Below are positions 1,564 to 25,599 of a stretch of DNA of 32,000 nucleotides, one piece after another. Under the pieces are notes generated by a model. It did no database searches, was not told where the DNA came from, and was given only the letters and a program-made list of their open reading frames with translations. Positions within the stretch are counted from its first letter, which is position 1. The number at the start of each line of letters is the position of its first letter. The position numbers and the translations under genes were made by a program. Source of the stretch: an uncultured Roseburia sp. (GTDB lineage Bacteria > Bacillota > Clostridia > Lachnospirales > Lachnospiraceae); NCBI GenBank assembly GCA_945787015.1, contig CALZGM010000013.1:28568-60567 (forward strand), read 5' to 3'.

Positions 1564-1647
1564 GTGACGGTTGCGTACGATTGCGACGATTATTTCTATA
1601 CCAGCACCGCTATATAAAATACCGTCGCAACCGTCGCTAATCGTCAC
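1564..1647. repeat. Iteron-like imperfect inverted repeat built from ACGRTTGCG units around an AT-rich spacer
   Basis: Units acggttgcg (1567-1575), acgattgcg (1577-1585) and acgattat (1586-1593). Inverted copies cgcaaccgt (1626-1634) and cgctaatcgt (1635-1644). Outer arms gtgacg/cgtcac. Confidence 0.6.
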
Positions 1648-2801
1648 GCTCTCTGTTCTAATGTCAGTTTAATCATTCGTGAACTGTGTCCTCGTTTACT
1701 CTCGTACCGAATACCATAATCCATAAATAAACGCTCCATGCCGATGTTTAATTTTCTTGTAAGGATGTTTGGCTGCATATCCATCTCCGGCAAAAGCTGT
1801 AACAATTCCGAAGCGGTTCCGATCCACTGAGGCTGTTCCTCTGATACCACCTTTGCAATCGCTTCCAGCACCGGATCAGCAGGCTCTTTCCAAAGCTCCG
1901 TTTCTGCTTTTGTCAGCTTCCACACACACTGTTCTCTGTCAAAATCGAGAAGCAGTCGCTGGTCTTGCTGGTCACGTCCTGCCACCTCTAAAACCGCTTT
2001 ATTATCCGTCCTCTTTTCCTTCTGCATGACAAATGCTCCGTCCGCAGCTCCCAGCAATCCATTTGTGCCGGAAATCATATCAAAGCTGTCAGAGGACTCC
2101 ATCTTTCTTGTGTGGTGCACCACCAGCAGACAGATACCATGCTCATCACTAAAGGCTTTCAGCTTGGTTACAATCTCATAGTCACTGGCATAGCTGAATT
2201 TATCTCCACCAAGTTCCCTTACCTTCTGCAAGGTATCAATGATAATCAGCCTTGCGTCTGTATGCTCTTTTACGAACTGGTTAAGCTGTTCTTCCAATCC
2301 TTCATTTAGAGTTTTGGACTGTGTGGCAAAGTAGAAATTTTCACTGCTTTCTATACCAAACATCCTTGATAAACGCTTCTGCAATCTTGCATAATCATCC
2401 TCTAATGCCAGATACAAAACAGTGCCCTTCCGCACCGGATAATCCCACAAATCAAGCCCCATGCTTACATGGTAGCCGAGCTGTGCCATAAAGAAGGATT
2501 TCCCTACCTTTGGTGCGCCCACAAATAGATAAGTACCTGCATAGATCAGTCCGTCCACAATCGGTATCTTGGGTGGATAAGCAGTATCGTAAAGTTCTGT
2601 CATGGATACTGTCTCTAATCCATCAATCCTATCTCTTTTCTCTGCCGTAACTTCCGCACCGGAACCACGATTATTTGTGGCTTGCAGATTGCCCTTATCG
2701 GGCAAATCTGCTATACTTTCCTTGTTAGTTTTACATAGTGACTGCTTCCCATCTGCGCCAACAGATGGAACCGGAGCAGTCGCTTTTTCTTTTACACTCA
2801 T
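1644..2801 (-). CDS. RepA/DnaB-like RecA-fold ATPase (AAA_25-type), probably the replication or mobilization helicase of the element
   Basis: Walker A motif GAPKVGKS and Walker B-like motif ARLIIIDTLQ. The ATG overlaps the mobC stop codon. Confidence 0.75.
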   Translation of the reverse strand: MSVKEKATAPVPSVGADGKQSLCKTNKESIADLPDKGNLQATNNRGSGAEVTAEKRDRIDGLETVSMTELYDTAYPPKIPIVDGLIYAGTYLFVGAPKVGKSFFMAQLGYHVSMGLDLWDYPVRKGTVLYLALEDDYARLQKRLSRMFGIESSENFYFATQSKTLNEGLEEQLNQFVKEHTDARLIIIDTLQKVRELGGDKFSYASDYEIVTKLKAFSDEHGICLLVVHHTRKMESSDSFDMISGTNGLLGAADGAFVMQKEKRTDNKAVLEVAGRDQQDQRLLLDFDREQCVWKLTKAETELWKEPADPVLEAIAKVVSEEQPQWIGTASELLQLLPEMDMQPNILTRKLNIGMERLFMDYGIRYESKRGHSSRMIKLTLEQRA

Positions 2802-3121
2802 TCACTCTCTCCTCTCAATCCATTCATGGTTTCCGCTATCAGTTGGATTGTGTAAAGCAATTCGTCATTTGCTTCACTGCAACTCTCCAGACGCTTCAGT
2901 TCCTCATAAATATCTGCCATCTGATTTCTTAATGCCTTATACACTCTCGGATTACCCTGTACCACCACATCACGGCACTGCAACCGTCTGATAATATAGT
3001 CCTGCTTGGTAAGACCGGATAATGCCACACAATTGTCAATCAGCTTTGCTTCTTCCTCTGATACCCGAAATCCCACAAGTTTGTTTCTCCAGCGTCCTTT
3101 GCTGTCTAAATTTTTCTCCAT
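2798..3121 (-). CDS. mobC: MobC-family relaxosome accessory protein (ribbon-helix-helix)
   Basis: RWRNKLVGFRVSEEEAKLIDNCVALSGLTKQDYIIRRL matches the MobC pattern. The ATG at 3121 overlaps the integrase stop codon (ATGA-type junction). Confidence 0.7.
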   Translation of the reverse strand: MEKNLDSKGRWRNKLVGFRVSEEEAKLIDNCVALSGLTKQDYIIRRLQCRDVVVQGNPRVYKALRNQMADIYEELKRLESCSEANDELLYTIQLIAETMNGLRGESE

Positions 3122-4203
3122 CAATCCATCTCTCCTTTTCCCATTCGCTCAATGTCCAATTTATCTGCCATTTCCGTCTGCTTCGTTGGAAATAAATGTG
3201 CATACCGGTAAGTAATATCAATACTTTCATGTCCTACCCTTTCCGCAATCGCCAGAGCAGAAAATCCCATCTCAATCAAAAGTGAAATCGCACTGTGACG
3301 AAGATCATGGATGCGGATACGCTTGACTCCTGCTGCCTTTGCCCCTCTGTCCATCTCATGGTGCAGATACGACTTGGTAATCTGGAACAGCCTTTCATCC
3401 TCCCCAATCTCATACAGCATACCAATATACTCTTGCATTTCCTCACACAAAAACTTCGGCATTTTAATTGTCCGGTTACTTTTCTTGGTTTTCGGTGTGG
3501 TAATCACATCCCTGCCATTCAACCGCTGATAGGACTTATTGATGGTCAGCTCCTGACGCTCGAAATTAAAGTCCTTTGGTGTAAGGGCAAGCAGCTCCCC
3601 ACACCGGATTCCCGTCCAATAGAGCATTTCAAACGCATAATAGGAAACAGGCTTATCCATCATCACATCCGCAAATTTCAGATATTCCTCTTTCGTCCAG
3701 AACAGCATTTCCTTGTGTTCCTCGCTTCCCATCGATCCGGCTCTCTGCGCCGGATTGGAAGGCAAATGATAATATCTTACTGCATGATTGAAAATGGCAC
3801 TGAGCTGGCTGTGGATGGTTTTAAGGTAAGTTGGGGAATACACTTCCCCATTCTCTCCCTTATAGGCAAGAAGCTCATTCTGCCAGGCAATCACATCCTT
3901 TGGCTCAATCTCCGCAATCTTACGCTCCCCGAAATAAGGAAGTATCTTGGTACGGATAATATGGCTTTTGGACTCCCATGTGTTCTCCTTTACCCGTTTT
4001 TTCTTGTCGGCTTCATAAATCTCAAAGAAGCTGGCAAAAGTCATATCCAGCTTGGACTCACTTTTTAACATCACCTCCCTCTCCCATGCTTGTGCTTCTC
4101 GTTTGGTTGCAAAACCACGTTTCTGTGTCTGTTTCCGCTCTCCCTTATAATTGGTATAGCGGTAAATGACACGCCATTTGTCACCATCTTTATATACAGC
4201 CAT
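3121..4203 (-). CDS. int: Tyrosine site-specific integrase
   Basis: N-terminal arm-binding-type domain (MAVYKDGDKWRVIYRY...REAQAWE). Catalytic pattern TGIRCGELLAL ... HDLRHS ... GHESIDITYRYAHL (R, H-x-x-R, H, Y). Confidence 0.9.
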   Translation of the reverse strand: MAVYKDGDKWRVIYRYTNYKGERKQTQKRGFATKREAQAWEREVMLKSESKLDMTFASFFEIYEADKKKRVKENTWESKSHIIRTKILPYFGERKIAEIEPKDVIAWQNELLAYKGENGEVYSPTYLKTIHSQLSAIFNHAVRYYHLPSNPAQRAGSMGSEEHKEMLFWTKEEYLKFADVMMDKPVSYYAFEMLYWTGIRCGELLALTPKDFNFERQELTINKSYQRLNGRDVITTPKTKKSNRTIKMPKFLCEEMQEYIGMLYEIGEDERLFQITKSYLHHEMDRGAKAAGVKRIRIHDLRHSAISLLIEMGFSALAIAERVGHESIDITYRYAHLFPTKQTEMADKLDIERMGKGEMD

Positions 4204-4218
4204 AACATCATCTCCTCT

Positions 4219-4398
4219 CTATTCGCTGTAACATAACTTCTTGCGAAAGAAGTTGGTATTCACTCTTCCGGTAACTGTCAAATACCCAAGCTTCTGCATT
4301 TCCGCATTCAGCTCTCTGACAACCTTGTATGCATAGGACTTGGAAACATTAAGCTCCTGTGCCACTTCATCCACCGTCATAAAGTTCTTATTCTCCAT
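4219..4398 (-). CDS. xis: Excisionase / MerR-type HTH DNA-binding protein
   Basis: MENKNFMTVDEVAQELNVSKSYAYKVVRELN... The RBS aagggggA lies 6 nt before the ATG at 4398. It sits directly upstream of int. Confidence 0.75.
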   Translation of the reverse strand: MENKNFMTVDEVAQELNVSKSYAYKVVRELNAEMQKLGYLTVTGRVNTNFFRKKLCYSE

Positions 4399-4603
4399 GT
4401 GGATTCCCCCTTTCTTCAAAATTTTGTTTGCCGCTCTCCCTTACACTTTCCTGACAGGTTGCCTTGCGTGGTACTTTGTCGTGTTTCCATCCCTTCGTAC
4501 GCTCACTTTCGGTCATCGCATATTTTTCCGGATGGTATCTGCTCGGACGGTCATTTAGTTTTAACTTAACTTACTTTGTTTAAGTTTCTGTTTTGTATAA
4601 TAC

Positions 4604-4711
4604 TAAACATTTTCCGTTAAGTCAAGTGGTTTTCAGAATAATCTTAAACATTTTTATTTAAGTTCTTCTTGCTATACTCATTAACACATGTTATACTCTA
4701 CTTAAACATTT
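4604..4711. promoter_or_regulatory. Three copies of TAAACATTT in the xis / XRE divergent control region; candidate operators
   Basis: taaacattt at 4604-4612, 4645-4653 and 4703-4711. An inverted partial copy, gtttaag, lies at 4577-4583. Confidence 0.5.
4669..4697 (+). promoter_or_regulatory. Sigma-A-type promoter for the XRE repressor
   Basis: TTGCTA (4669-4674), 17-nt spacer, TATACT (4692-4697). The predicted transcription start falls on the third TAAACATTT copy. Confidence 0.5.
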
Positions 4712-4760
4712 CTGTTTTACTTAACAGATAAATGGCAACAACATGACAGGAGGCATTACT

Positions 4761-5321
4761 ATGGCAATCGGGCAACGAATTCGATTTTTCCGTAACAGAA
4801 AAGGCATGACACAAAAGCAGCTTGGAGAAGTCCTCGGCTTTCTTGGCAAGACTTCTGATGTCCGTATGGCACAATATGAATCAGAATCAAGAGTACCCAA
4901 GCATGATCTCGTAAAAGAAATGGCTGGTATCTTTGATGTCAGCACCCATGCACTTACCGTACCGGATATAGATACCTACATCGGTCTTATGCATACCTTT
5001 TTCGCATTGGAAGATATGTATGGACTGAAAATTGACGAAATGGATGGTGAAGTAGTCTTACGTTTGGATAAGTCCGACTATTCTACCTATTCCTCAATGG
5101 ATAAAATGCTCCGTGCATGGCTCGCCGAAGCTAAAAAGCTGGAGAATGGCGAAAGCACCAAAGAGGAATATGATAACTGGCGTTATAAATATCCGGAACT
5201 GGATACACACCAAGTCTGGGCTAAGGTTCCTTCACAGGAAATCAGCGATATGCTTCTCGCCGGATTAAAAGAAATGGAAAAAGAAGAAAAGAAAGAAACC
5301 AAACGCAAAATGAAAAAATAA
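4761..5321 (+). CDS. XRE-family HTH transcriptional regulator (repressor of the element)
   Basis: MAIGQRIRFFRNRKGMTQKQLGEVLG is an HTH_3 pattern. The RBS aggagg (4748-4753) lies 7 nt before the ATG at 4761. Confidence 0.8.
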   Translation: MAIGQRIRFFRNRKGMTQKQLGEVLGFLGKTSDVRMAQYESESRVPKHDLVKEMAGIFDVSTHALTVPDIDTYIGLMHTFFALEDMYGLKIDEMDGEVVLRLDKSDYSTYSSMDKMLRAWLAEAKKLENGESTKEEYDNWRYKYPELDTHQVWAKVPSQEISDMLLAGLKEMEKEEKKETKRKMKK

Positions 5322-5498: not shown

Positions 5499-7055
5499 TT
5501 ACTCAAACTCAATTGTTCCGGGTGGCTTACTGGTCAAGTCGTAGAATACTCTGTTGACCCCGCGCACCTCATTTATAATTCGGCTCATCACAGTTTGAAG
5601 TACCTCGAACGGAATCTCTGCAGCCTCTGCTGTCATGAAGTCAATGGTATTGACTGCTCTTAAGGCAACCGCGTAGTCGTAGGTTCTTTCGTCGCCCATG
5701 ACGCCTACGGAACGCATATTGGTAAGTGCTGCGAAATACTGGCCGATGTTGCGGTCAAGGCCGGCTTTTGCGATTTCCTCACGGTAAATCGCATCGGCAT
5801 CCTGCACGATGCGCACTTTTTCAGCGGTTACTTCTCCGATGATACGGATGCCAAGCCCCGGTCCCGGGAATGGCTGACGGAATACAAGATGTTCCGGTAT
5901 TCCAAGCTCTAAGCCGGCTTTACGAACCTCGTCCTTGAAGAGGTCACGGAGTGGTTCAATGATTTCCTTGAAATCAACGCAATCCGGAAGGCCTCCAACG
6001 TTGTGGTGGGATTTGATGACTGCGGATTCACCGCCGAGACCACTCTCTACCACGTCAGGATAGATGGTTCCCTGTACGAGGAAATCAACAGCGCCGATTT
6101 TCTTTGCTTCTTCTTCAAATACACGGATAAATTCTTCACCGATGATTTTACGTTTGCGTTCAGGCTCTTCTACACCTGCGAGCTTACTGTAAAAACGCTC
6201 CTGTGCATTTACACGGATAAAGTTCAATTTATATGGGCCATCCGGTCCGAATACTGCCTCAACCTCATCGCCCTCATTTTTTCTAAGAAGGCCATGGTCT
6301 ACAAAGACGCAAGTGAGCTGCTCACCAATTGCTTTTGCAAGCATAACTGCGGCAACAGAGGAATCCACGCCGCCGGACAATGCGCAAAGCACTTTGCCGT
6401 CTCCGACTTTTTCACGAATGGTTTTGATGGAGTTCTCAACAAAGGAATCCATTCTCCAGGTTCCTGCACAGCCACAGACTCCACGAACGAAGTTGCGAAG
6501 CATCTTGGTTCCTTCCTGTGTGTGAAGTACTTCCGGATGGAACTGGATTGCATACAGATTTTTTTCACGATTTTCTGCTGCAGCAACCGGGCAGTCTGCG
6601 GTATGTGCCACGATGGAAAATCCCGGTGCAATTTTAGAAATATAATCAAAATGACTCATCCAGCAAATTGTTTTTTCGCTGACATCTGTAAAAAGCGGGG
6701 ATGCCGTATTTACGAAGACTTCTGTCTTACCATACTCGCGTACCGGTGCTTTTTCTACTTTGCCGCCAAGTACATGCATCATCAGCTGTGCGCCATAGCA
6801 AAGGCCCAGTACCGGAATGCCCAGTTCGAATAATTCTTTGGTGTAAGTCGGTGCGCCTTCCTCATAGCAGCTGTTTGGTCCGCCTGTTAAAATGATACCC
6901 ATTGGCTTCATTGCTTTAATCTGCTCGATATCGGTACGATATGAATAGATTTCACAATAAACGTTGCATTCTCTGACACGTCTTGCAACCAGCTGGTTGT
7001 ACTGACCGCCAAAGTCAATGACAATCACTTTTTCTTTGGAAATGTCGTTTCCCAT
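5499..7055 (-). CDS. guaA: GMP synthase (glutamine-hydrolysing)
   Basis: GATase start [16 protein letters not shown]-PPase motif SGGVDSS, canonical C-terminus KPPGTIEFE. Confidence 0.97.
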
Positions 7056-9306: not shown

Positions 9307-10821
9307 ATGTCACAAACAGTAAAATTGACACCGGATACACTAAAGGCTTTACATGAAGTAAATCCAATGCTCGTATCCTACAATGTTGAGTTTGCAGAGG
9401 TTACTGGGGGTACCTTCTGGAAAGCTTACACACCGGGGCAGATTGCCGGCACTGAGCCTTTTATTGTACAGCCAACTGCAGATGGTATTGCAGCAATGTA
9501 CAAAGATTTGATGCAGGTATATCCTCCTATTGATCTGTATAACGAAAAGCTCCGCAAATTAGCAAAGGATTTAGGTCCTGCATGGGTTCGTGTTTCCGGA
9601 ACCTGGGCTACCAAAACCTACTATGATTTTGATGGCACTACAAACGGCGTTGTACCGGAAGGTTATCTTAATGTATTAACAAAGGAACAGTGGATTGGCG
9701 TTCTTGATTTTGTAAAAGCGATTGGTGCCAAGTTAATGGTATCCGTTTCGAACTGTCCGGGTCTTCACACCGCAGAGGAACCATGGAATCCTTCCGAAGC
9801 AGAAAAACTTTTCGGTCTGAGCAAAGAATACGGTGTTCCGATTAATGGCGCAGAATTTACAAATGAGCCTAATATGATGGAAGAAACCGGTTTTCCGAAG
9901 GGCTACACTGCAGAACACTACCGCAGAGACCACGATTTATTCTTTTCCTGGTTAGAGGAAAACTATCCGGAATGTATCAAAATTGGGCCCAGCACAACAG
10001 GCGGCGATAATATCTCTTTTGGGAAAGGCGGCGGTGTTGAGCAGCTTGTTGGAGAAACCGTGGGATGTGACGACCTTGTTGGCGGCACAAAGACAAAATT
10101 AGATGTGTTCAGTTATCATTATTACAATGGTGTTTCTGACCGTCTCGCATCTGTGATGCCAAACGCCCACTGGCAGCCGGAAGAAGCAACTTCCGAAGCA
10201 TACTTAGATACCGCATTAAACTTCTGCCGTACTTACCGCCCGTTCCGTGACAAATATGTTCCGGGAGGCGAAATGTGGGTAACCGAGTCCGGCGATGCAG
10301 GCGGCGGTGGTGACACCTGGGCTTCCACCTATCTGGATGTTATCCGTACGTTAAACGAACTTGGTGGTTTTGCATCTTTAACAAACGGTGTCATTTTCCA
10401 CAACACCCTTGCTTCTTCAGATTATGGCTATCTTGCACGTCAGGTATTTGACCCAAGACCGAATTATTTTGCAGTCCTGTTGTGGAACCGCTTAATGGGT
10501 ACTACTGCTTACGATTCAGGTGAACCAATCCGTGAGGGAGCACATGTTTATGTTCATTCCCGCAAAGATGGCAAAGAAGGTAAGGTTTACTTAGTCATCA
10601 ACAATTCAAGAACGGAAACTACAACCGTTGAACTGCCGAAGGACGCAGAGCGCTATACCTTAGCAGGTTTAGACGGCAACGTTCGCGCTACAGTTATGAC
10701 CTTAAACGGCAATCCGTTAACCTTAGGTGAAGGCTATGCTCTTCCGGAATTAAAACCGGTTGCACAGGCTGCCGGAACTGTAGAGTTAGCGCCTTGCACT
10801 TGTACGTTCTTTGTATTATAA
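9307..10821 (+). CDS. Glycoside hydrolase, GH79 / heparanase-like (beta-glucuronidase type); no signal peptide seen
   Basis: Acid/base motif AEFTNEPN and nucleophile motif WVTESGDAGGGG resemble heparanase NEPN and GETSSAYGGG. RBS aaaggagaag lies upstream. Confidence 0.7.
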   Translation: MSQTVKLTPDTLKALHEVNPMLVSYNVEFAEVTGGTFWKAYTPGQIAGTEPFIVQPTADGIAAMYKDLMQVYPPIDLYNEKLRKLAKDLGPAWVRVSGTWATKTYYDFDGTTNGVVPEGYLNVLTKEQWIGVLDFVKAIGAKLMVSVSNCPGLHTAEEPWNPSEAEKLFGLSKEYGVPINGAEFTNEPNMMEETGFPKGYTAEHYRRDHDLFFSWLEENYPECIKIGPSTTGGDNISFGKGGGVEQLVGETVGCDDLVGGTKTKLDVFSYHYYNGVSDRLASVMPNAHWQPEEATSEAYLDTALNFCRTYRPFRDKYVPGGEMWVTESGDAGGGGDTWASTYLDVIRTLNELGGFASLTNGVIFHNTLASSDYGYLARQVFDPRPNYFAVLLWNRLMGTTAYDSGEPIREGAHVYVHSRKDGKEGKVYLVINNSRTETTTVELPKDAERYTLAGLDGNVRATVMTLNGNPLTLGEGYALPELKPVAQAAGTVELAPCTCTFFVL

Positions 10822-11149: not shown

Positions 11150-11410
11150 TCACCTGTGCCCTTCCATATGTAAGTATTTTTCTCTTGTTGCAAGTCCACC
11201 ACGCAAATGCCGTTCTGCCTTATTTACATCCAGCACTTTCCTTACTTCTGCCGCAAGCGAAGCATTTACCTGCACTAATCGTTCTGTGCAATCCTTATGT
11301 ACGGTCGACTTACTGATTCCAAAATGTTTTGCGGCCTGTCTTACTGTTGTGTTGTTGTCAATAATATAACGCGCAATCTCCATTGCACGCTCTTCAATAT
11401 ATCCTTTCAA
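11150..11410 (-). CDS. spoIIID: Stage III sporulation transcription factor SpoIIID
   Basis: (M)KGYIEERAMEIARYIIDNNTTVRQAAKHFGISKSTVHKDCTERL aligns with B. subtilis SpoIIID MHDYIKERTIKIGKYIVETKKTVR...VSKSTVHKDLTERL. TTG start at 11410, with RBS AGGGGA 5-6 nt upstream. Confidence 0.9.
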   Translation of the reverse strand: MKGYIEERAMEIARYIIDNNTTVRQAAKHFGISKSTVHKDCTERLVQVNASLAAEVRKVLDVNKAERHLRGGLATREKYLHMEGHR

Positions 11411-11455
11411 AAAAATCCCCTGCAATACTTGTTTTTACATTGTATGCAGGGGATT
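11337..11455. repeat. 119-bp direct repeat, copy 1 (functional spoIIID 5' end, RBS, promoter -10 and hairpin)
   Basis: Matches 15370-15488 at 117 of 119 positions. The mismatches are at 11350/15383 and 11409/15442. Confidence 0.95.
11413..11452 (-). terminator. Hairpin plus T-run ending the nucleotidyltransferase gene; it overlaps the spoIIID promoter and RBS
   Basis: Minus strand: cccctgcatac...gtattgcagggg followed by attttttt. Confidence 0.6.
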
Positions 11456-11467
11456 TTGTATTTATTT
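11439..11467 (-). promoter_or_regulatory. Sigma-E-type promoter candidate for spoIIID
   Basis: The minus strand reads CATACAAT (11446-11439), matching the B. subtilis sigma-E -10 element CATACA-T. An ATA-rich -35-like element, aaataaa, lies 14 nt upstream. Confidence 0.45.
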
Positions 11468-12196
11468 CTATTTTCCATTATCCGTCACATGTTTTTTCGC
11501 CTTAGCAGCTAATAAAATCTCGGCAAGATTGTCACCATTAAGCACACCCGGATAATCTTCCTGGAATTCAACTAATACATCCTTATTTTCCTGTTCAAGT
11601 TCTCTGCACTGCTTGTAAAAAGCATGCAAATTTTCTTTCTTATAAACAGCCTCGATAAAAACTCTGGCATCTTCTGGTATTCGGCTATAAGAATCGTATA
11701 AATCGATTATAGCCTTTTGAATTTTTTCAAATGTCAATGGCTCATTCCGTTCTTCCTGCTCAATCAACACACCTACAATATCAGATAAATCATTTTTATA
11801 TTGGCGTCCTGCCATGAGTTTCATTGCTACAAGATATTCAGCTGATACTGTTCTAATCTGTAAAACATTTGCAAAAGTCTTATAATACTTTGAATACTCT
11901 ACCAATCTTGGCGTATAGGAATTGGTATTAATAAAGTCTGTATTTAACCATCCAACCGGAAGACCAAGTCTATCTCCTACTGTGTTGATTGCATCCTTCA
12001 TAGACCCGGAAGACTGAATAATTGCATCTATGTCATAGGTCATTTCCCGAAAACCATAATTAATAAGAATTGCTGCCCCACCAATCAGAATAATCTCCGC
12101 CGGCATTCTGGTACCATTCTTTTTACGAAACTCTTTTGCCAGTTCTTTTAGATAACCATCCAGATTTTCCTTTGTAAATGGTTTATCAACAGACAT
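11468..12196 (-). CDS. Pol-beta-fold nucleotidyltransferase, AbiEii/MenT-like putative toxin
   Basis: NTase signature LIGGAAILINYGFREMTYDIDAI (GG, 13 residues, then DxD; compare AbiEii GGTAL...R.S.DlD). It overlaps the upstream HTH gene by 11 nt. Confidence 0.6.
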   Translation of the reverse strand: MSVDKPFTKENLDGYLKELAKEFRKKNGTRMPAEIILIGGAAILINYGFREMTYDIDAIIQSSGSMKDAINTVGDRLGLPVGWLNTDFINTNSYTPRLVEYSKYYKTFANVLQIRTVSAEYLVAMKLMAGRQYKNDLSDIVGVLIEQEERNEPLTFEKIQKAIIDLYDSYSRIPEDARVFIEAVYKKENLHAFYKQCRELEQENKDVLVEFQEDYPGVLNGDNLAEILLAAKAKKHVTDNGK

Positions 12197-12767
12197 TTCG
12201 CACCTCGCTTTCTACGATATTAAATTGTATAAATTCAGGTATTGCATTCGCAAGTGCTTTTTCTTTTATACTTTCATCTCCGGTTGCAGCATATGACACA
12301 ACTACACTCGCAGGAAAATATGGTTTTTCAAGCTTCCGAGAACGAATATCATTATAATTTGTGCAGATGGGCAAACCGTTTATTCTGGATAAATAGTCAA
12401 TCATTGCCAGCAGATACAATGCTTCTCTATACCATCTACGCTCATAAAGCCTTCGTATTTCATCCGTTTCAAGTGTTTCAATAATAAAATCAATATCGCC
12501 CATATCCTTCACCTGATGACAAGTATTACTCTTAAATGTCTCAAAAGAGAATCTGTAATCCGTCCTGTCTGCGTTATTGTTCTCCAATATTGAATCAACA
12601 GTTACTCCAAGAACCTTAGCAATCCTATATAAAGTTCCAGCTGCACACTTATCGAGGTCTGCTTTGCCGCTACAAATATCTGTGATAGTTGTCATTGCGA
12701 CTCCGCTTTCTTTACTTAAGCGATATCTCGACATATTTTCTTTTTCAAGTAAATCATTTACAATCAT
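12186..12767 (-). CDS. XRE-type HTH protein with an uncharacterised C-terminal domain; putative antitoxin or regulator
   Basis: HTH segment MSRYRLSKESGVAMTTITDICSGKADLDKCAAGTLYRIAKVLGVTVDSIL. RBS aaggaggg lies 7 nt before the ATG at 12767. Confidence 0.7.
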   Translation of the reverse strand: MIVNDLLEKENMSRYRLSKESGVAMTTITDICSGKADLDKCAAGTLYRIAKVLGVTVDSILENNNADRTDYRFSFETFKSNTCHQVKDMGDIDFIIETLETDEIRRLYERRWYREALYLLAMIDYLSRINGLPICTNYNDIRSRKLEKPYFPASVVVSYAATGDESIKEKALANAIPEFIQFNIVESEVRNVC

Positions 12768-12788
12768 CAGCTTTCCCTCCTTTTTCAT

Positions 12789-12817
12789 AGTATATCGGTC
12801 AACCGAACTAATGTCAA
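12789..12817 (-). promoter_or_regulatory. Consensus sigma-A promoter with a palindromic operator for the HTH-NTase pair
   Basis: Minus strand: TTGACA (12817-12812), 17-nt spacer, TATACT (12794-12789). The spacer contains the palindrome tcggttgaccga. Confidence 0.7.
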
Positions 12818-13018
12818 TAATATATTATGTTCAATTTGAGAAAATCTATACCTCCGGTTTTACTATGTACTCGCTCTCCTCTGCACATTTTGATGCAGCT
12901 TCTTCTATAGCGCGTTCCACTTTACCTGCATTAGCTTCAATCAAAAGCTTACACAAAATTACTAAGCAAAAACCGGTGAAACTGCAACTTTGTTCCTTTT
13001 TGTAATATAATCAGAATT

Positions 13019-15091
13019 CTACCAAGCCAACTGACATTCATGTTTCTTAAAGAAATCCACTCTCGGTTCCAGATACTCCAATTTATGTTTCTCTACATCT
13101 CCAACATAAAATGCAATAGGCTCAAAAATATGATTCCAATCCCACAATTCTTCTCCCACATTTAGATATTCTCTAAACATTTCACATCCTTCCGGTGCAA
13201 TTGGATGAACTAAAATCGCCATAATCTTACAAGCATAAAAGCAATCCAAAATAAGCTGCTTTCTATATTCCATATCACCTGTTGCATCGGCAATTTTTAC
13301 ATTATTTACCCAGTGCTTGTTTACCCGCCGTATAAAATCATCCAAAACATATGAAATTCGATGGAACTCATGGTTATACATATGACGCTCATAGTCAAGC
13401 ACCGCTTTTTCAGCCAAAGTCTTTATTTCCTCACTCACTTCTCCCTCAGGAATTCTACCATCACAATTGTTCTGAATTGCATAAAAACAGGTGCGAATCA
13501 GACGATTAAACACATTGGTAATTAAATTGCCATCTTTCAAAACCATATCAACCCCAACACGTTCTTCCTCTTTCATAAACACCTGTGGTTTAAAACCTAC
13601 ACTTTTTGAGGACAGCCCTAAACTCATAAAATGCATTCGCAGCTGATCCTTAGTGTAATAATCAAGCAACTCATCCGCCGTAGGTGGCTTTATTTCTGAA
13701 CTACTACTGGCTTTTGTATCCATATACAATAAATGTCGGTTAGCAATAATATGAGATAAATGTACCTTCTCCATATTCGGCACTTCCCCTTTAGGAACCT
13801 GTAATCCTGTAAATAATCCGGTCTGAGCAATCGCATAGAAATAAATATTATCTTCCCCAATAAACTGATAAACTGTAGATTCATCATCATACCACCACTT
13901 GGACAAATCATCTTCCTTTTCCTTCTCCCTTAAATATGCTAAAGTAAAGGAAATTGGTGCCCATAACGACTCCGGCCACACCCAGAATGTCAAGTCTTTT
14001 AAATCTTCACATTCCGGAAAAGGTACTCCCCATTCTACATTGCCGGACAGTCGAAACGGAACCAATGTCTTTCCAGAAGTATAATGAATATTTTCCGCAT
14101 CCAAAACACTTTTCGCCTTGTCTCTGTCATCCAGGTTTTCAAATTCGAAGACAACAGAAGGTTTCTTCTCCTCATCAATCAGTTTATGAGGTGGTAATTT
14201 TTCGATTAATTTTTCCAAATCAACTATATATTTTCTAGGCACATAAATATAAGGCTTCTTCAAAAATTCTTCTACGGTTTCTAACTGATACTTACGGGTG
14301 TTTGTATTTTTGCGCAAAAAATCATTATATTCCTTTACCATATCGATACAATGTTCTAAGTCAAAATACCAATTCTTAACATCTTTAAGAACAGGCTTTT
14401 TATTCGACAGACAACTGATAGGACCTATAAGTTCAGAAGGCAAAAACTGGTGTCCCAGTGAACATTCATCTGCGTATGCTTTGTCTGAGGTACATCCCGG
14501 TATCGGGCATTTTCCTATTACCTGTCTTCCGTTTAAAAACATCTTCTTTTCCTCATCATAAAACTGTGGCACAGACAATTTCTGAATATACCCGTTCTCA
14601 TATAAAGTTCGAAATACTCTAGCTGATACACGTTTATGAATTGTTCCTGCCTCTTCTAAAGCCGACGCGCCAAAAAAGTCCAAACTAATACCATAGTTTT
14701 CCAAGGTCTTCTTCTGTCTCTCGTGATTACCACGTACATAGTCCTTAAGCGTTCCTTCATATCCCACTTCCTGCAGTTTGCGATAACTTTCCATAATAGG
14801 CGAGCCGTAACAGTCAGTTCCGGAAAGAAAAATAACATTCTCTTTTCCAATTCTGTCTCTTAAAAATCTTGCAAAAATATCAGCATGTATAAACATACCG
14901 CCTACGTGTCCAAAATGCAGGTTCTTATTTCCATAAGGCATACCTGCCGTAATAATTGCCCTTTTAGGAAATGTCGGGCGTTCATTTGATGTTAATCGTT
15001 TACATATCATATACATTTGTTCCTTTCTGTTATTTACTATGATTTTTCCCTGCTTCCCCTTCTGCTGGGGAAGCTCTGACTGTTCCGGCAT
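13019..15091 (-). CDS. metG: Divergent methionine--tRNA ligase paralog (class I aaRS)
   Basis: HIGH motif PYGNKNLHFGH, Zn-knuckle-like CPIPGCTSDKAYADEC, and MetRS-like LRMHFMSLGLSS. The KMSKS position reads TKASSSS. RBS aggagg lies 6 nt before the ATG at 15091. Confidence 0.75.
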   Translation of the reverse strand: MPEQSELPQQKGKQGKIIVNNRKEQMYMICKRLTSNERPTFPKRAIITAGMPYGNKNLHFGHVGGMFIHADIFARFLRDRIGKENVIFLSGTDCYGSPIMESYRKLQEVGYEGTLKDYVRGNHERQKKTLENYGISLDFFGASALEEAGTIHKRVSARVFRTLYENGYIQKLSVPQFYDEEKKMFLNGRQVIGKCPIPGCTSDKAYADECSLGHQFLPSELIGPISCLSNKKPVLKDVKNWYFDLEHCIDMVKEYNDFLRKNTNTRKYQLETVEEFLKKPYIYVPRKYIVDLEKLIEKLPPHKLIDEEKKPSVVFEFENLDDRDKAKSVLDAENIHYTSGKTLVPFRLSGNVEWGVPFPECEDLKDLTFWVWPESLWAPISFTLAYLREKEKEDDLSKWWYDDESTVYQFIGEDNIYFYAIAQTGLFTGLQVPKGEVPNMEKVHLSHIIANRHLLYMDTKASSSSEIKPPTADELLDYYTKDQLRMHFMSLGLSSKSVGFKPQVFMKEEERVGVDMVLKDGNLITNVFNRLIRTCFYAIQNNCDGRIPEGEVSEEIKTLAEKAVLDYERHMYNHEFHRISYVLDDFIRRVNKHWVNNVKIADATGDMEYRKQLILDCFYACKIMAILVHPIAPEGCEMFREYLNVGEELWDWNHIFEPIAFYVGDVEKHKLEYLEPRVDFFKKHECQLAW

Positions 15092-15136
15092 GGTACACCT
15101 CCTTTCCGATTTTTCAAATCGATGAAGTTTGCTCAC

Positions 15137-15177
15137 AAAAAAACGGTCAAAAACTCGCATTGAGCTTTCGACCGTTT
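15137..15177 (-). terminator. Intrinsic terminator / attenuator inside the MetRS leader
   Basis: Minus strand: aaacggtc (15177-15170), 21-nt loop, gaccgttt (15148-15141), then ttttt. It lies about 45 nt upstream of the MetRS start codon. Confidence 0.65.
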
Positions 15178-15325: not shown

Positions 15326-15354
15326 ATTCTATCAGTAGTGATATGCATTGTCAA
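15326..15354 (-). promoter_or_regulatory. Consensus sigma-A promoter of the MetRS paralog
   Basis: Minus strand: TTGACA (15354-15349), 17-nt spacer, TAGAAT (15331-15326). Confidence 0.65.
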
Positions 15355-15369
15355 TATGAAATATCTGTT

Positions 15370-15443
15370 TGTCTTACTGTTGAGTTGTTGTCAATAATAT
15401 AACGCGCAATCTCCATTGCACGCTCTTCAATATATCCTTTCCA
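15370..15443 (-). pseudogene. Orphan 5' fragment of spoIIID (about 25 codons, start codon TTG mutated to TGG)
   Basis: The minus strand reads tgg aaa gga tat att gaa gag cgt gca atg gag att gcg cgt tat att att gac aac aac. Homology to spoIIID ends at 15370. Confidence 0.8.
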
Positions 15444-15488
15444 AAAAATCCCCTGCAATACTTGTTTTTACATTGTATGCAGGGGATT
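15370..15488. repeat. 119-bp direct repeat, copy 2
   Basis: See copy 1. It contains the same hairpin/T-run, which here terminates the histidine phosphatase gene, and the same CATACAAT element. Confidence 0.95.
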
Positions 15489-15529
15489 GTTAATTATTCT
15501 ATATTTTATGTAGGTACATTTTCCATCCA

Positions 15530-16130: not shown

Positions 16131-16724
16131 TCAATCTATCCTTATCACATGCGAACTCGTCTGTGCTTTTATAGACACACCATTCCATCTATAATCGTAC
16201 AATTCAACATCTTCCGGTGTAACAGATAAGTAGTCTCCATTCATACCTTGAATTCGGATTTCTTCATCATGAATCTCCACATCCACGTACAATGCCTGTT
16301 TATATAAAAGCATTCCGTGCAAATAACCATATTTCTTTTTCAGTTCTTCTGAACTCACAATTTGAGCACCACACCATACATAAGCAGCTGAATTAACAGT
16401 ATAGTACGGAATGTCATTAACAACTGTAAACGCATCTCCATGATCATGTCCATTCATGCATAACAATATATCCTTCCCCTGAAACAGCCTTCTTATCTCT
16501 TCTCTATTATAAATACCTCTATCCCTATGTTCATTCACAAGACTGTGGTGTGAAAAAATAATATACTTTTTTCTGTCACTCAATTCCCTTTTCAGCCATT
16601 CTATTTCGTCTTCCGGAATGATTGGATAGATGGAATTAGCCTCCCTATAAGTTCTTCTATAGTAAGCGCTTTCCTGACCATCCTTACTGAAATAACAAGA
16701 GTTCAAAACAATAAACTTAATCAT
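16131..16724 (-). CDS. Metallophosphoesterase C-terminal half (motifs I-III absent)
   Basis: Only the late motifs are present (FSHHSL and NGHDHGD). No DxH, GDxxD or GNHE motif is found. Only 76 bp separate its start from the aroK stop codon. Confidence 0.6.
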   Translation of the reverse strand: MIKFIVLNSCYFSKDGQESAYYRRTYREANSIYPIIPEDEIEWLKRELSDRKKYIIFSHHSLVNEHRDRGIYNREEIRRLFQGKDILLCMNGHDHGDAFTVVNDIPYYTVNSAAYVWCGAQIVSSEELKKKYGYLHGMLLYKQALYVDVEIHDEEIRIQGMNGDYLSVTPEDVELYDYRWNGVSIKAQTSSHVIRID

Positions 16725-25570: not shown

Positions 25571-25599
25571 AGTATAGCACCGCGTAAAATCCATGTCAA
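25571..25599 (-). promoter_or_regulatory. Strong sigma-A promoter of veg
   Basis: Minus strand: TTGACA (25599-25594), 17-nt spacer ending in TGc, TATACT (25576-25571). Confidence 0.7.

What the first reader, a model, noticed from the sequence alone, without database searches (positions are those of the whole stretch)
11468..12817. Overlapping XRE-HTH / nucleotidyltransferase gene pair resembling an AbiE- or MenAT-type toxin-antitoxin or abortive-infection module
A 193-aa protein has an XRE HTH and an unrecognised ~130-aa C-terminal domain. Its gene overlaps by 11 nt a 242-aa protein with a Pol-beta NTase signature (LIGGAAILINYGFREMTYDIDAI). That signature resembles the GG...R.S.DlD motif of AbiEii/MenT (DUF1814) toxins.

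The pair has its own near-perfect promoter (TTGACA, 17 nt, TATACT). The spacer of that promoter holds the palindrome TCGGTTGACCGA, an obvious autoregulatory operator.

The layout (DNA-binding antitoxin first, NTase toxin second, overlapping genes, autoregulation) matches type IV/VII TA and Abi systems. The antitoxin, however, is an XRE-type protein rather than AbiEi. That points to an undescribed variant.
Basis: partly seen in the sequence, partly recalled or inferred. Interest (0 to 1): 0.72.

Follow-up and report, generated by a model that had tools for sequence, protein, structure and literature searches.

The report
Putative nucleotidyltransferase toxin-antitoxin gene pair
A small, self-regulating two-gene cassette common in gut Clostridia encodes a DNA-binding protein and an uncharacterised nucleotidyltransferase. 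It looks like an unstudied cousin of the AbiE/MenAT toxin-antitoxin and phage-defence systems, but nobody has shown that it is toxic.

Summary
On the minus strand, a 193-aa XRE-HTH protein (12767..12186) overlaps by 11 nt a 242-aa nucleotidyltransferase (12196..11468). Both sit behind a TTGACA-17-TATACT promoter whose spacer holds TCGGTTGACCGA.

- **Family.** The NTase belongs to Pfam DUF6036 (44 bits). It is not AbiEii/DUF1814 (18.6 bits, below the 22.5 cut-off; profile-profile comparison aligns motif I only). It still carries GG...[S/T]-x-D-x-D and K...R..K-x-D-x-x-D motifs.
- **Pairing.** The partner lies directly upstream wherever upstream DNA exists, in about 165 loci from other genomes. 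The overlap is 11 or 8 nt in 76 of 79 loci.
- **Operator.** The promoter and a CGG-N4-CCG dyad are kept in 122 of 130 distinct upstream regions. Dyad variants co-vary with the HTH recognition helix.
- **Context.** Flanks are unrelated between loci. Neighbours include genuine AbiEi-AbiEii pairs and Fic genes, and one copy sits in a phage tail module.
- **Partner domain.** The ~130-aa C-terminal domain matches no family and occurs once without the HTH.

Best reading: an autoregulated AbiE/MenAT-like toxin-antitoxin or abortive-infection module with a new antitoxin domain. Toxicity is untested and both structure predictions failed. Verdict: a new variant of a known kind, of moderate interest.

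The parts
12812..12817 (-). -35 hexamer TTGACA of the pair's own promoter
   Evidence: 11 of 12 consensus positions; 3 such sites in the window against 0.32 expected. TTGAC is conserved at 0.9-1.9 bits across 122 aligned upstream regions.
12795..12806 (-). Dyad operator TCGGTTGACCGA in the promoter spacer, abutting the -10 box. The conserved core is CGG-N4-CCG.
   Evidence: Unique in the window. The core is present in 122 of 130 distinct upstream regions, with CGG and CCG at 1.9-2.0 bits. Both half-sites change together in L058 (TGG/CCA) and in L133/L154/L167 (CGA/TCG). In L133/L154/L167 the recognition helix changes as well. Protein binding itself is inferred.
12789..12794 (-). -10 hexamer TATACT
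   Evidence: TATAnT is conserved at 1.9-2.0 bits.
12775..12782 (-). Ribosome-binding site AAGGAGGG of the HTH gene
   Evidence: Read from the sequence. A GGAGG-like site is conserved upstream of the start in relatives.
12186..12767 (-). Gene for the 193-aa putative antitoxin and autorepressor. Residues 1-62 are the XRE HTH (nt 12582-12767). Residues ~73-193 are an unannotated, mostly helical domain (nt 12189-12551).
   Evidence: HTH_26, HTH_3. The C-domain has no family match. It is conserved over its full length in relatives. A C-domain-only homologue exists in L095.
12201..12206 (-). Ribosome-binding site GAGGTG of the NTase gene, inside the end of the HTH gene
   Evidence: Read from the sequence. 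The overlap is -11 or -8 nt in 76 of 79 loci, which implies translational coupling.
11468..12196 (-). Gene for the 242-aa DUF6036-family nucleotidyltransferase, the putative toxin. Key residues are G39 G40, R50, T53, D55, D57, D87, K126, R131, D136 and D139.
   Evidence: Pfam DUF6036 E=2.2e-11, 44.2 bits against a 23.6 cut-off. All 45 diverse relatives match DUF6036.
11414..11455 (-). Terminator-like hairpin followed by a T-run, after the NTase stop codon. It belongs to the host spoIIID upstream region, not to the cassette.
   Evidence: Predicted dG is -22.9 kcal/mol. The identical hairpin lies upstream of spoIIID in L008 and L009, which lack the pair.

Best explanation
This is a two-gene, autoregulated toxin-antitoxin (and possibly abortive-infection) module. 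It works like AbiE/MenAT but is built from different families.

- **Toxin (inferred).** The downstream 242-aa DUF6036 nucleotidyltransferase is the growth-inhibiting component. By analogy with MenT and AbiEii, it would add nucleotides to an RNA 3' end such as the tRNA CCA end and so block translation.
- **Antitoxin (inferred).** The upstream 193-aa protein is the antitoxin. Its unannotated C-terminal domain binds and neutralises the NTase. It may do so by inducing auto-phosphorylation of the invariant Ser/Thr (T53) that lies two residues before catalytic D55, as shown for MenT1 T39, MenT3 S78 and AbiEii T65.
- **Autoregulation (inferred).** The N-terminal XRE HTH binds as a dimer to the CGG-N4-CCG dyad between the -35 and -10 boxes of a near-consensus promoter and represses the operon.
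- **Coupling.** The 11-nt overlap couples NTase translation to translation of the antitoxin.

Shown here: the anatomy, family assignment, strict pairing, operator conservation and covariation, mobility and genomic company. Inferred: toxicity, the target, the neutralisation mechanism and DNA binding.
For: 1. **Family.** DUF6036 scores 44.2 bits (cut-off 23.6) for the window protein and matches 45 of 45 diverse relatives. The next-best families are DUF2204 (11 of 45) and AbiEii (3 of 45). The NTP_transf_2 (MNT) and Polbeta families are not among the listed matches.
2. **Motifs.** G40, R50, D55, K126, R131, D136 and D139 are invariant and D57 and D87 nearly so. Position 53 is Thr in 34 and Ser in 11 of 45. 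hhalign places T53-x-D55-x-D57 on the [S/T]-x-D-I-D motif of four genuine AbiEii. PMC11375011 and bioRxiv 10.64898/2026.01.19.700257 identify that residue as the phospho-acceptor.
3. **Pairing.** The partner is directly upstream in 79 of 80 genome loci and 85 of 87 metagenome or viral loci. The exceptions are all at contig edges. The overlap is -11 nt in 60 loci and -8 nt in 16 of 79.
4. **Operator.** The motif is present in 122 of 130 distinct upstream regions. L133/L154/L167 have CGA-N4-TCG together with a recognition helix changed from DICSGK to SE[VMI]TTGK. L058 has TGG/CCA. The site is unique in the window.
5. **Modular antitoxin.** In L095 the partner is the C-domain alone (136 aa, no HTH), placed in front of an NTase 48% identical to the window protein.
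6. **Mobility.** No flanking gene family is shared by more than 6 of 75 loci. DNA homology to L001-L004 is limited to 12841..11514.
7. **Company.** Among 149 non-redundant neighbours there are 4 AbiEii, 2 DUF6088, 3 Fic and 3 AAA_21 genes. AbiEi/DUF6088-AbiEii pairs lie immediately upstream in L051, L052, L059 and L065/L067. In viral contig L090 the pair sits between the major tail protein and the tape measure protein.
8. **Decay pattern.** Three loci have a disrupted NTase with an intact partner (L059, L078, L112). None shows the reverse.
Against: - No experiment or published assay exists for any DUF6036 protein.
- The NTase fails the AbiEii gathering score, and profile-profile similarity stops at motif I.
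- No solved structure is detectable by sequence or profile.
- The AlphaFold model of the NTase was unusable (pLDDT 51.8), so the fold rests on the Pfam match and the motifs.
- No PADLOC model hits the NTase.
- The module is rare on plasmids (3 distant hits) and absent from GenBank phage records.
- The 3-versus-0 decay asymmetry is too small to be significant.
- The pair is intact and well conserved in hundreds of species, which also fits a useful non-toxic function.
Confidence: 0.6

Rival explanations
1. Regulator plus benign enzyme. The XRE protein is a ligand-sensing repressor whose C-domain is a sensor or oligomerisation domain. It controls a non-toxic nucleotidyltransferase that modifies a small molecule (as the resistance enzymes ANT and Lnu modify antibiotics) or repairs RNA ends.
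For: - The DUF1814 superfamily itself contains ANT(2'')-Ia.
- Foldseek on the weak HTH model lists two-domain XRE regulators such as SinR, PrgX, Rgg and ComR.
- RNA-repair genes occur next to some copies: HAD_SAK_2 in L095 and RlaP in 2 of 149 neighbours.
- The pair is intact in nearly all loci.
Against: - The C-domain exists without any HTH, still coupled to the NTase (L095). That argues for a protein-protein partner and not a repressor accessory domain.
- The cassette shows TA-like behaviour: an overlap of 8-11 nt, 1:1 co-inheritance and unrelated flanks.
- It sits among AbiE and Fic genes and in a phage tail module.
- The [S/T]-x-D-x-D and K...D-x-x-D motifs resemble the toxin branch.
Confidence: 0.2
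2. Reversed roles, as in HepT/MntA. The NTase is the antitoxin and nucleotidylates and inactivates a toxic C-terminal domain of the HTH protein.
For: Type VII HEPN/MNT systems use an NTase as the antitoxin (PMC7641770, listed; PMC3632139). The partner's C-domain has invariant polar residues (H84, K87, E115, D124, R142) that could form an active site.
Against: - None of the 45 relatives matches NTP_transf_2 (MNT) among the listed families. The nearest families are DUF2204 and AbiEii.
- The partner has no conserved R-x4-6-H HEPN motif. The only invariant His is H84, and the nearest conserved Arg is 12 residues away.
- A DNA-binding toxin encoded first in the operon is atypical.
- The disrupted copies affect the NTase and not the partner.
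Confidence: 0.08
3. Mobile-element control module. A phage- or island-borne repressor plus an NTase acts in the element's own biology, for example lysogeny control, superinfection exclusion without toxicity, or modification of phage nucleic acid. It would not be an addiction or suicide module.
For: One clade sits inside a siphovirus tail module (L090/L092/L094). The window copy lies in a 4,033-bp segment bracketed by 138-nt direct repeats. The promoter-operator layout resembles those of phage repressors and restriction-modification control proteins (PADLOC Control_protein E=7.8e-5).
Against: - Only 7 of 2.9 million viral contigs carry it, and no GenBank phage does.
- Most of the ~165 loci sit in ordinary chromosomal neighbourhoods with no shared mobile-element genes.
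- The operator is found only at the pair's own promoter in the window.
Confidence: 0.1

Closest known systems
AbiE (AbiEi-AbiEii) of Lactococcus and Streptococcus agalactiae; DUF1814/COG5340; recently reclassified as type VII TA
   Same: - It is a bicistronic operon with the DNA-binding antitoxin first and the NTase second.
- The antitoxin is bipartite: an N-terminal DNA-binding domain for autoregulation through inverted repeats, and a C-terminal neutralising domain.
- NTase motif I has a Ser/Thr two residues before the first catalytic Asp, and there is a K...[RK]-x-D-x-x-D motif towards the C-terminus.
- It is found on mobile elements and in defence islands.
   Different: - The NTase is in Pfam DUF6036 and is below threshold for AbiEii. 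Profile-profile similarity is confined to motif I.
- The protein is about 240 aa, against 280-330 aa for the AbiEii neighbours.
- The antitoxin has an XRE (Cro/C1) HTH instead of the AbiEi winged helix, and a C-domain that matches no AbiEi or DUF6088 model.
- The operator is a single short dyad inside the promoter spacer.
- No toxicity or phage-defence data exist.
MenAT1-4 of Mycobacterium tuberculosis (MenT NTase toxins with diverse MenA antitoxins)
   Same: These are NTase toxins paired with antitoxins from unrelated families. MenA1 and MenA3 neutralise by inducing auto-phosphorylation of the Ser/Thr next to the catalytic Asp (T39-x-D41, S78-x-D80). This corresponds to T53-x-D55 here, which is always Ser or Thr in 45 relatives.
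   Different: The MenT proteins are DUF1814 members and this one is not. No tRNA-modifying activity is known for DUF6036. The antitoxin domain here is new, and the host range is gut and rumen Clostridia.
HepT/MntA (HEPN/MNT) type VII TA
   Same: It is a two-gene module with a Pol-beta-superfamily NTase, and is often found in the same islands. An NTP_transf_2 (MNT) gene lies next to the pair in L096.
   Different: In HepT/MntA the NTase is the antitoxin and the partner is a HEPN RNase. Here there is no NTP_transf_2 match and no HEPN motif, and the gene order and HTH placement point the other way.
XRE-antitoxin type II TA systems (HigA, HipB, Xre-RES, Xre-COG5654)
   Same: An XRE HTH antitoxin represses its own promoter through a dyad. 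The HTH resembles HigA, HipB and SinR in profile and fold searches.
   Different: The toxin partner is an NTase and not an RNase, kinase or NADase. The antitoxin also carries an extra ~130-aa domain of unknown family.

Membership tests
Pfam DUF6036 (PF19502) nucleotidyltransferase | Score at or above the Pfam gathering cut-off (23.6 bits) | tested here: met
   The window protein scores 44.2 bits, E=2.2e-11, residues 16-178 on profile positions 3-148 of 164. All 45 diverse relatives match.
AbiEii / DUF1814 (PF08843) NTase toxins, including MenT | Score at or above the Pfam gathering cut-off (22.5 bits) | tested here: not met
   The score is 18.6 bits, E=0.0019. Only 3 of 45 relatives reach E<0.01.
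AbiEii / DUF1814 (PF08843) NTase toxins, including MenT | Profile-profile homology to genuine AbiEii over the whole catalytic domain | tested here: not met
   hhalign of A6 (45 sequences) against A8 (4 AbiEii that score 96-147 bits on PF08843) aligns only 31 columns of motif I, with probability 1.3%.
AbiEii / DUF1814 (PF08843) NTase toxins, including MenT | Motif I: hGG...[S/T]-x-D-h-D, with a Ser/Thr phospho-acceptor two residues before the catalytic Asp | tested here: met
   G39 G40 ... T53-Y-D55-I-D57. Position 53 is Thr in 34 and Ser in 11 of 45, and D55 is invariant. It aligns to R-x-[TS]-x-D-I-D of AbiEii. The residue's role comes from PMC11375011 and the 2026 bioRxiv paper.
AbiEii / DUF1814 (PF08843) NTase toxins, including MenT | C-terminal motifs III and IV (a catalytic Lys, then Asp residues unique to the family) | tested here: inconclusive
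   K126, R131, D136 and D139 are invariant, in AMKLxxxRxYKxDxSD. By eye this resembles AbiEii EK...R-x-[RK]-D-F-Y-D-V. hhalign did not align it and no structure is available.
AbiE / MenAT system | Cognate antitoxin of the AbiEi/COG5340 type (AbiEi_* or DUF6088 domains), or a MenA family | tested here: not met
   The partner matches only HTH_26 and HTH_3. Its C-domain matches nothing. The AbiEi and DUF6088 neighbours in L051, L052, L059 and L065 are different proteins.
AbiE / MenAT system | NTase toxic when expressed alone and neutralised by its partner; nucleotide transfer to tRNA; phage defence | not testable with these tools
   This needs expression, biochemical and phage assays.
Toxin-antitoxin module (generic) | Compact bicistronic operon with strict co-occurrence of both genes | tested here: met
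   The partner is present in 79 of 80 and 85 of 87 loci, with all exceptions at contig edges. The overlap is 8 or 11 nt in 76 of 79 loci.
Toxin-antitoxin module (generic) | Autoregulation by the DNA-binding antitoxin at an operator in its own promoter | tested here: inconclusive
   The comparative evidence is strong. The dyad is present in 122 of 130 upstream regions, its half-sites change together, and it co-varies with the recognition helix. Binding and repression have not been measured.
Toxin-antitoxin module (generic) | Patchy, mobile distribution in unrelated genomic contexts and on mobile elements | tested here: met
   No flanking family is shared by more than 6 of 75 loci. DNA homology is limited to the cassette. 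Copies occur in a prophage tail module and in an insertion bracketed by 138-nt repeats in the window.
HEPN/MNT (HepT/MntA) | NTase of the minimal MNT type (NTP_transf_2) and a partner with a HEPN R-x4-6-H motif | tested here: not met
   None of the 45 relatives shows an NTP_transf_2 match among the listed families. The partner has a single invariant His (H84) with no conserved Arg 4-6 residues before it.
Known anti-phage defence systems (PADLOC-DB v2.0.0) | A PADLOC model matches the effector protein | tested here: not met
   The NTase has no hits. The partner hits only generic HTH models (PDC-M69A 1.5e-5, Control_protein 7.8e-5, capH 0.002).

The most novel reading that the evidence does not exclude
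The pair founds a new and very abundant type VII toxin-antitoxin and abortive-infection family in gut and rumen Firmicutes and their prophages. A previously unannotated helical domain, usually fused to an XRE HTH and sometimes free-standing, switches a DUF6036 nucleotidyltransferase off by inducing auto-phosphorylation of its invariant Ser/Thr. This would extend the MenA/AbiEi mechanism to a second NTase family and a fourth, unrelated antitoxin fold.
Probability: 0.3. Interest if true: 0.6.

Novelty: new variant of a known kind. Interest (0 to 1): 0.45.

Why it matters
**If confirmed**
- It would assign a function to DUF6036. That family has about 1,570 clusters at 50% identity among 1.84 billion representative proteins and no literature.
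- It would assign a function to an unannotated partner domain found in thousands of gut-microbiome proteins.
- It would show that the NTase-toxin strategy and its phospho-switch control reach beyond DUF1814.
- It would add a defence or addiction module to catalogues such as PADLOC and DefenseFinder, which currently miss it in dominant human- and animal-gut Lachnospiraceae and Ruminococcaceae.
- The natural operator and recognition-helix variants offer a ready-made specificity pair for engineering repressors.

**If the NTase is not toxic**
The finding reduces to a widespread regulator-enzyme cassette of unknown role.

Tried and rejected
1. **Structure prediction.** AlphaFold2 failed for both proteins. 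Only alignments of hits at 78% identity or more were allowed as input. The NTase model had pLDDT 51.8, was all-helical and is not interpretable. The partner model had pLDDT 63, with only the HTH and helices 75-129 moderately confident. Neither can confirm or refute the fold.
2. **Foldseek.** A search of the partner model against the PDB returned only HTH proteins, none with E at or below 0.001. It says nothing about the C-domain.
3. **PDB sequence and profile searches.** Searches with the single proteins and with diverse profiles A3, A4 and A6 gave nothing significant for the NTase and only HTH hits for the partner.
4. **Third homologue search.** Using a diverse profile to deepen the alignment again returned only close relatives.
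5. **Literature.** DUF6036 and PF19502 appear in no paper, and DUF2204 in one irrelevant paper.
6. **pNP40 AbiEii.** Fetching it by accession failed because the record is not in the collection. Genuine AbiEii sequences were taken from neighbouring genes instead.
7. **Rfam.** The whole window gave no hits. In particular there is no T-box leader before metG. No tRNA genes were found.
8. **metG link.** I considered whether metG is functionally linked to the pair, as an aminoacyl-tRNA synthetase next to a possible tRNA-modifying toxin. I rejected this. No metG or any other gene recurs next to the pair in 75 other loci.
9. **HEPN reading of the partner.** I rejected this because the motif is absent.
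Full report
**1. Observation**

The finding lies on the minus strand.
- The ORF listing gives a 200-aa ORF at 12788..12186 and a 242-aa ORF at 12196..11468.
- The 12788 ATG touches the -10 hexamer. The real start is therefore ATG 12767, which gives 193 aa and is preceded by AAGGAGGG. Homologues are 189-196 aa with the same start.
- The two genes overlap by 11 nt. A GAGGTG ribosome-binding site for the second gene lies inside the first gene.
- The promoter scan finds TTGACA-17-TATACT at 12817..12789, matching 11 of 12 consensus positions. Only three such sites occur in the window, against 0.32 expected from shuffles.
- TCGGTTGACCGA (12806..12795) is an imperfect palindrome in the promoter spacer. 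The extended motif occurs nowhere else in the 32 kb.

**2. The two proteins**

*The 242-aa protein*
- It matches Pfam DUF6036, 'nucleotidyltransferase of unknown function', at 44.2 bits (cut-off 23.6).
- It matches AbiEii only below threshold, at 18.6 bits against a cut-off of 22.5.
- PADLOC and NCBIfam give nothing.

*The 193-aa protein*
- It has a Cro/C1-type HTH at residues 5-62 (HTH_26, HTH_3).
- Its remaining ~130 residues match no family in Pfam, NCBIfam, PADLOC or PHROGs. The same is true for divergent homologues.

*Searches against solved structures*
- Sequence and profile searches of the PDB find no relative of the NTase. They find only HTH proteins for the partner.

**3. Family size and conserved residues**
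- The NTase has 5,361 hits among the 90%-identity clusters.
- An exhaustive search of 1.84 billion representatives finds 1,569 clusters at 50% identity with E<=1e-3, and 235 with E<=1e-30.
- All 45 diverse full-length representatives match DUF6036. Eleven also match DUF2204 and three weakly match AbiEii. NTP_transf_2 (MNT) is not among the listed families.
- G40, F49, R50, D55, W83, N85, S93, A124, K126, R131, D136, D139 and E201 are invariant. G39, D57 and D87 are nearly so.
- Position 53, two residues before D55, is Thr in 34 and Ser in 11 of the 45 sequences.

**4. Relation to AbiEii and MenT**
- Genuine AbiEii genes (PF08843, 96-147 bits) happened to lie next to the pair in several fetched loci. 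I aligned four of them and compared profiles.
- hhalign aligns only motif I, over 31 columns, with probability 1.3%.
- In that alignment GG, T53, D55 and D57 fall on GG and [S/T]-x-D-I-D of AbiEii.
- The literature shows that this Ser/Thr is the residue on which the cognate antitoxin induces auto-phosphorylation, which switches the toxin off. The residues are MenT1 T39, MenT3 S78 and AbiEii T65 (PMC11375011; bioRxiv 10.64898/2026.01.19.700257).
- A second conserved block, AMK126-L-x-x-x-R131-x-Y-K-x-D136-x-S-D139, resembles by eye the AbiEii block EK...R-x-[RK]-D-F-Y-D-V (motifs III and IV, described in PMC7450476). It was not aligned by any tool.
- Conclusion: the protein has the same motif logic as AbiEii but is a different family. 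Membership in DUF1814 was tested and not met.

**5. The pair is a unit**
- A scan of one genome per species found 247 relatives, of which 80 loci were kept. They come mostly from gut and rumen Lachnospiraceae and Ruminococcus, with a few assemblies labelled Bacteroidaceae, Selenomonadales, Parolsenella or Erysipelotrichaceae.
- The partner gene is directly upstream in 79 of the 80 loci. The exception starts at a contig edge.
- In 87 further metagenome and viral loci the partner is present in 85, and the other two are at contig edges.
- The overlap is 11 nt in 60 loci and 8 nt in 16 of 79.
- Both proteins are conserved over their full length down to ~55% identity.
- In the most distant pairs the partner diverges faster than the NTase:

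| Locus | NTase identity to window | Partner identity to window |
|---|---|---|
| L095 | 48% | 34% |
| L096 | 42% | 31% |

- In L095 the partner is only 136 aa. It is the C-domain alone, with no HTH, and the preceding gene ends 4 nt before its start. The C-domain is therefore the part tied to the NTase. The HTH is an add-on, as in AbiEi, whose N-terminal domain regulates and whose C-terminal domain neutralises.

**6. Promoter and operator**
- Of 130 distinct upstream regions, 122 share ATTGACAnTAnTTCGGTnnACCGATATAnT, while the sequence further upstream is unrelated. The CGG and CCG triplets carry 1.9-2.0 bits each, and the four bases between them are variable.
- Both half-sites change together in L058 (TGG...CCA) and in L133/L154/L167 (ACGA-N4-TCGT, at the same position).
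- In L133/L154/L167 the predicted recognition helix changes from T-x-x-D-I-C-S-G-K to T-x-S-E-[VMI]-T-T-G-K.
- L139 has the altered helix but a different, longer palindrome.
- This covariation is strong comparative evidence that the HTH protein binds the dyad as a dimer and represses its own near-consensus promoter. Binding itself has not been shown.

**7. Context**

*In the window*
- The pair lies between a methionyl-tRNA synthetase gene (15160..13019) and spoIIID (11410..11150).
- A 138-nt direct repeat (11337-11474 and 15370-15507, 93-95% identical, 4,033 nt apart) brackets metG plus the pair. The repeat consists of a hairpin plus the first ~74 nt of spoIIID. The distal copy is a dead spoIIID fragment whose TTG start codon has become TGG.
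- Contigs encoding an identical SpoIIID protein (L008, L009) have one copy of the repeat and neither metG nor the pair.
- The segment therefore looks like an insertion.

*In other loci*
- In another lineage (L001-L004, between flagellin and glnA) DNA homology covers only 12841..11514. That is the promoter and the two genes.
- Across 75 loci no flanking gene family is shared by more than 6.
- Among 149 non-redundant genes within two positions of the pair, 4 are AbiEii, 2 DUF6088, 3 Fic/Doc, 3 AAA_21 and 2 RlaP.
- Complete AbiEi/DUF6088-AbiEii pairs lie immediately upstream in L051, L052, L059 and L065/L067.
- Seven viral contigs carry the pair. In L090 it sits between the major tail protein (phrog_88, E=5e-59) and the tape measure protein (phrog_1272). 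Head-tail adaptor and tail terminator genes lie further upstream. This is a typical position for an accessory gene ('moron') carried by a phage.
- The pair is rare on plasmids (three distant actinobacterial DUF6036 genes) and absent from GenBank phage records.

**8. Which gene is the toxin?**

Several lines favour the NTase as toxin and the partner as antitoxin.
- The DNA-binding protein is encoded first.
- The partner has a modular architecture.
- The NTase's nearest families are DUF2204 and AbiEii, and MNT-type NTases are not among them.
- The partner has no HEPN motif.
- Three loci have a broken NTase with an intact partner, and none shows the reverse:
  - L059 has a frameshift in motif I.
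  - L078 is truncated at residue 158.
  - L112 has an in-frame loss of residues 4-33.

The last point rests on too few cases to be significant. Toxicity remains an inference.

**9. What failed**
- Both AlphaFold jobs gave low confidence, because only near-identical homologues could be supplied as input. The NTase model had pLDDT 51.8 and the partner model 63.2.
- Foldseek on the partner model returned only HTH proteins.
- No paper in the searched library mentions DUF6036 or PF19502.

**10. Verdict**
- The module is real and widespread. It behaves like a toxin-antitoxin or abortive-infection cassette that works like AbiE/MenAT.
- It is not a member of that family. It combines a DUF6036 NTase with an XRE HTH fused to an unannotated domain.
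- I rate it a new variant of a known kind.
- My confidence in the toxin-antitoxin reading is about 0.6, and I score interest at 0.45.

Noticed in passing
window 11337-11474 and 15370-15507 (segment 11475-15507): A 138-nt direct repeat (93-95% identical, 4,033 nt apart) consists of a hairpin plus the first ~74 nt of spoIIID. The distal copy is a dead fragment in which the TTG start has become TGG. The repeat brackets metG plus the HTH-NTase pair. Contigs with an identical SpoIIID protein (L008, L009) have one copy and lack all three genes. It looks like a Campbell-type insertion or duplication at the 5' end of spoIIID, with no integrase inside the segment.
   Followed up: partly
window 11411-11455 (minus strand): The hairpin just upstream of spoIIID has a predicted dG of -22.9 kcal/mol. 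Its 3' arm (GGGGA) and T-run overlap the likely ribosome-binding site and TTG start of spoIIID. It is 100% conserved in four sequences, including genomes without the pair. It may be a terminator, a translational control element, or both.
   Followed up: no
window 1644-5321: A likely integrative mobilisable element lies next to guaA (5499..7055). It comprises a tyrosine integrase (3121-4203), a NikA-like mobilisation protein (2798-3124), an AAA_25 ATPase (1644-2801) and an XRE HTH protein (4743-5321). It lies ~6 kb from the pair and is not obviously linked to it.
   Followed up: partly
L051:3523-5009, L052:3813-5245, L059:860-2463, L065:1760-3275 (and the matching genes in L067): Complete AbiEi/DUF6088-AbiEii pairs sit immediately upstream of the HTH-DUF6036 pair in several unrelated lineages. 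This gives tandem NTase modules of two different families. It could reflect a shared insertion hotspot or a functional link.
   Followed up: partly
L090:3176-14921 (also L092, L094): In an 81-kb IMG/VR contig the pair lies inside a siphovirus tail module. It sits between the major tail protein and the 1,969-aa tape measure protein, with head-tail adaptor and tail terminator genes upstream. This is a phage accessory-gene ('moron') position.
   Followed up: partly
L095:7108-8750; L096:6822-8768: In L095 the partner lacks the HTH (136 aa, C-domain only). It is preceded by a HAD_SAK_2 phosphatase of the 'Swiss Army Knife' RNA-repair type. In L096 a minimal NTase (NTP_transf_2) gene lies directly upstream of the pair.
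   Followed up: partly
L133, L154, L167 (upstream of the HTH gene); L139: There is a natural operator-specificity switch. The dyad is ACGA-N4-TCGT instead of TCGG-N4-CCGA, and the recognition helix is SE[VMI]TTGK instead of DICSGK. L139 has the same helix but a different 9-bp-arm palindrome, CTTGAAAAC-TTT-GTTTTCAAG.
   Followed up: partly
L059:3455-4137, L078:6001-6474, L112:4001-4594: These are NTase genes disrupted next to intact partner genes. L059 has a frameshift in motif I, L078 is truncated after residue 158, and L112 has an in-frame deletion of residues 4-33. Assembly errors were not excluded.
   Followed up: partly
window 15326-15354 (-) and 25571-25599 (-): Two further near-consensus sigma-70-type promoters match 11 of 12 positions. 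The first lies just upstream of metG. No T-box or any other Rfam element was found before metG.
   Followed up: no
window 9307-10821 (+) and 16131-16724 (-): A 504-aa ORF and a 197-aa ORF have no Pfam match at E<=0.001. The 504-aa gene is conserved in the syntenic contigs L005 and L006.
   Followed up: no
L177:3317-4405; L178:3354-4411: These are distant DUF6036 genes on actinobacterial plasmids. One is a 362-aa protein with DUF6036 at its C-terminal end (Mycolicibacterium), possibly a fusion. The other is a 176-aa DUF6036 protein preceded by a 173-aa protein with no Pfam match at E<=1 (Rhodococcus). DUF6036 may therefore pair with other partner families.
   Followed up: no
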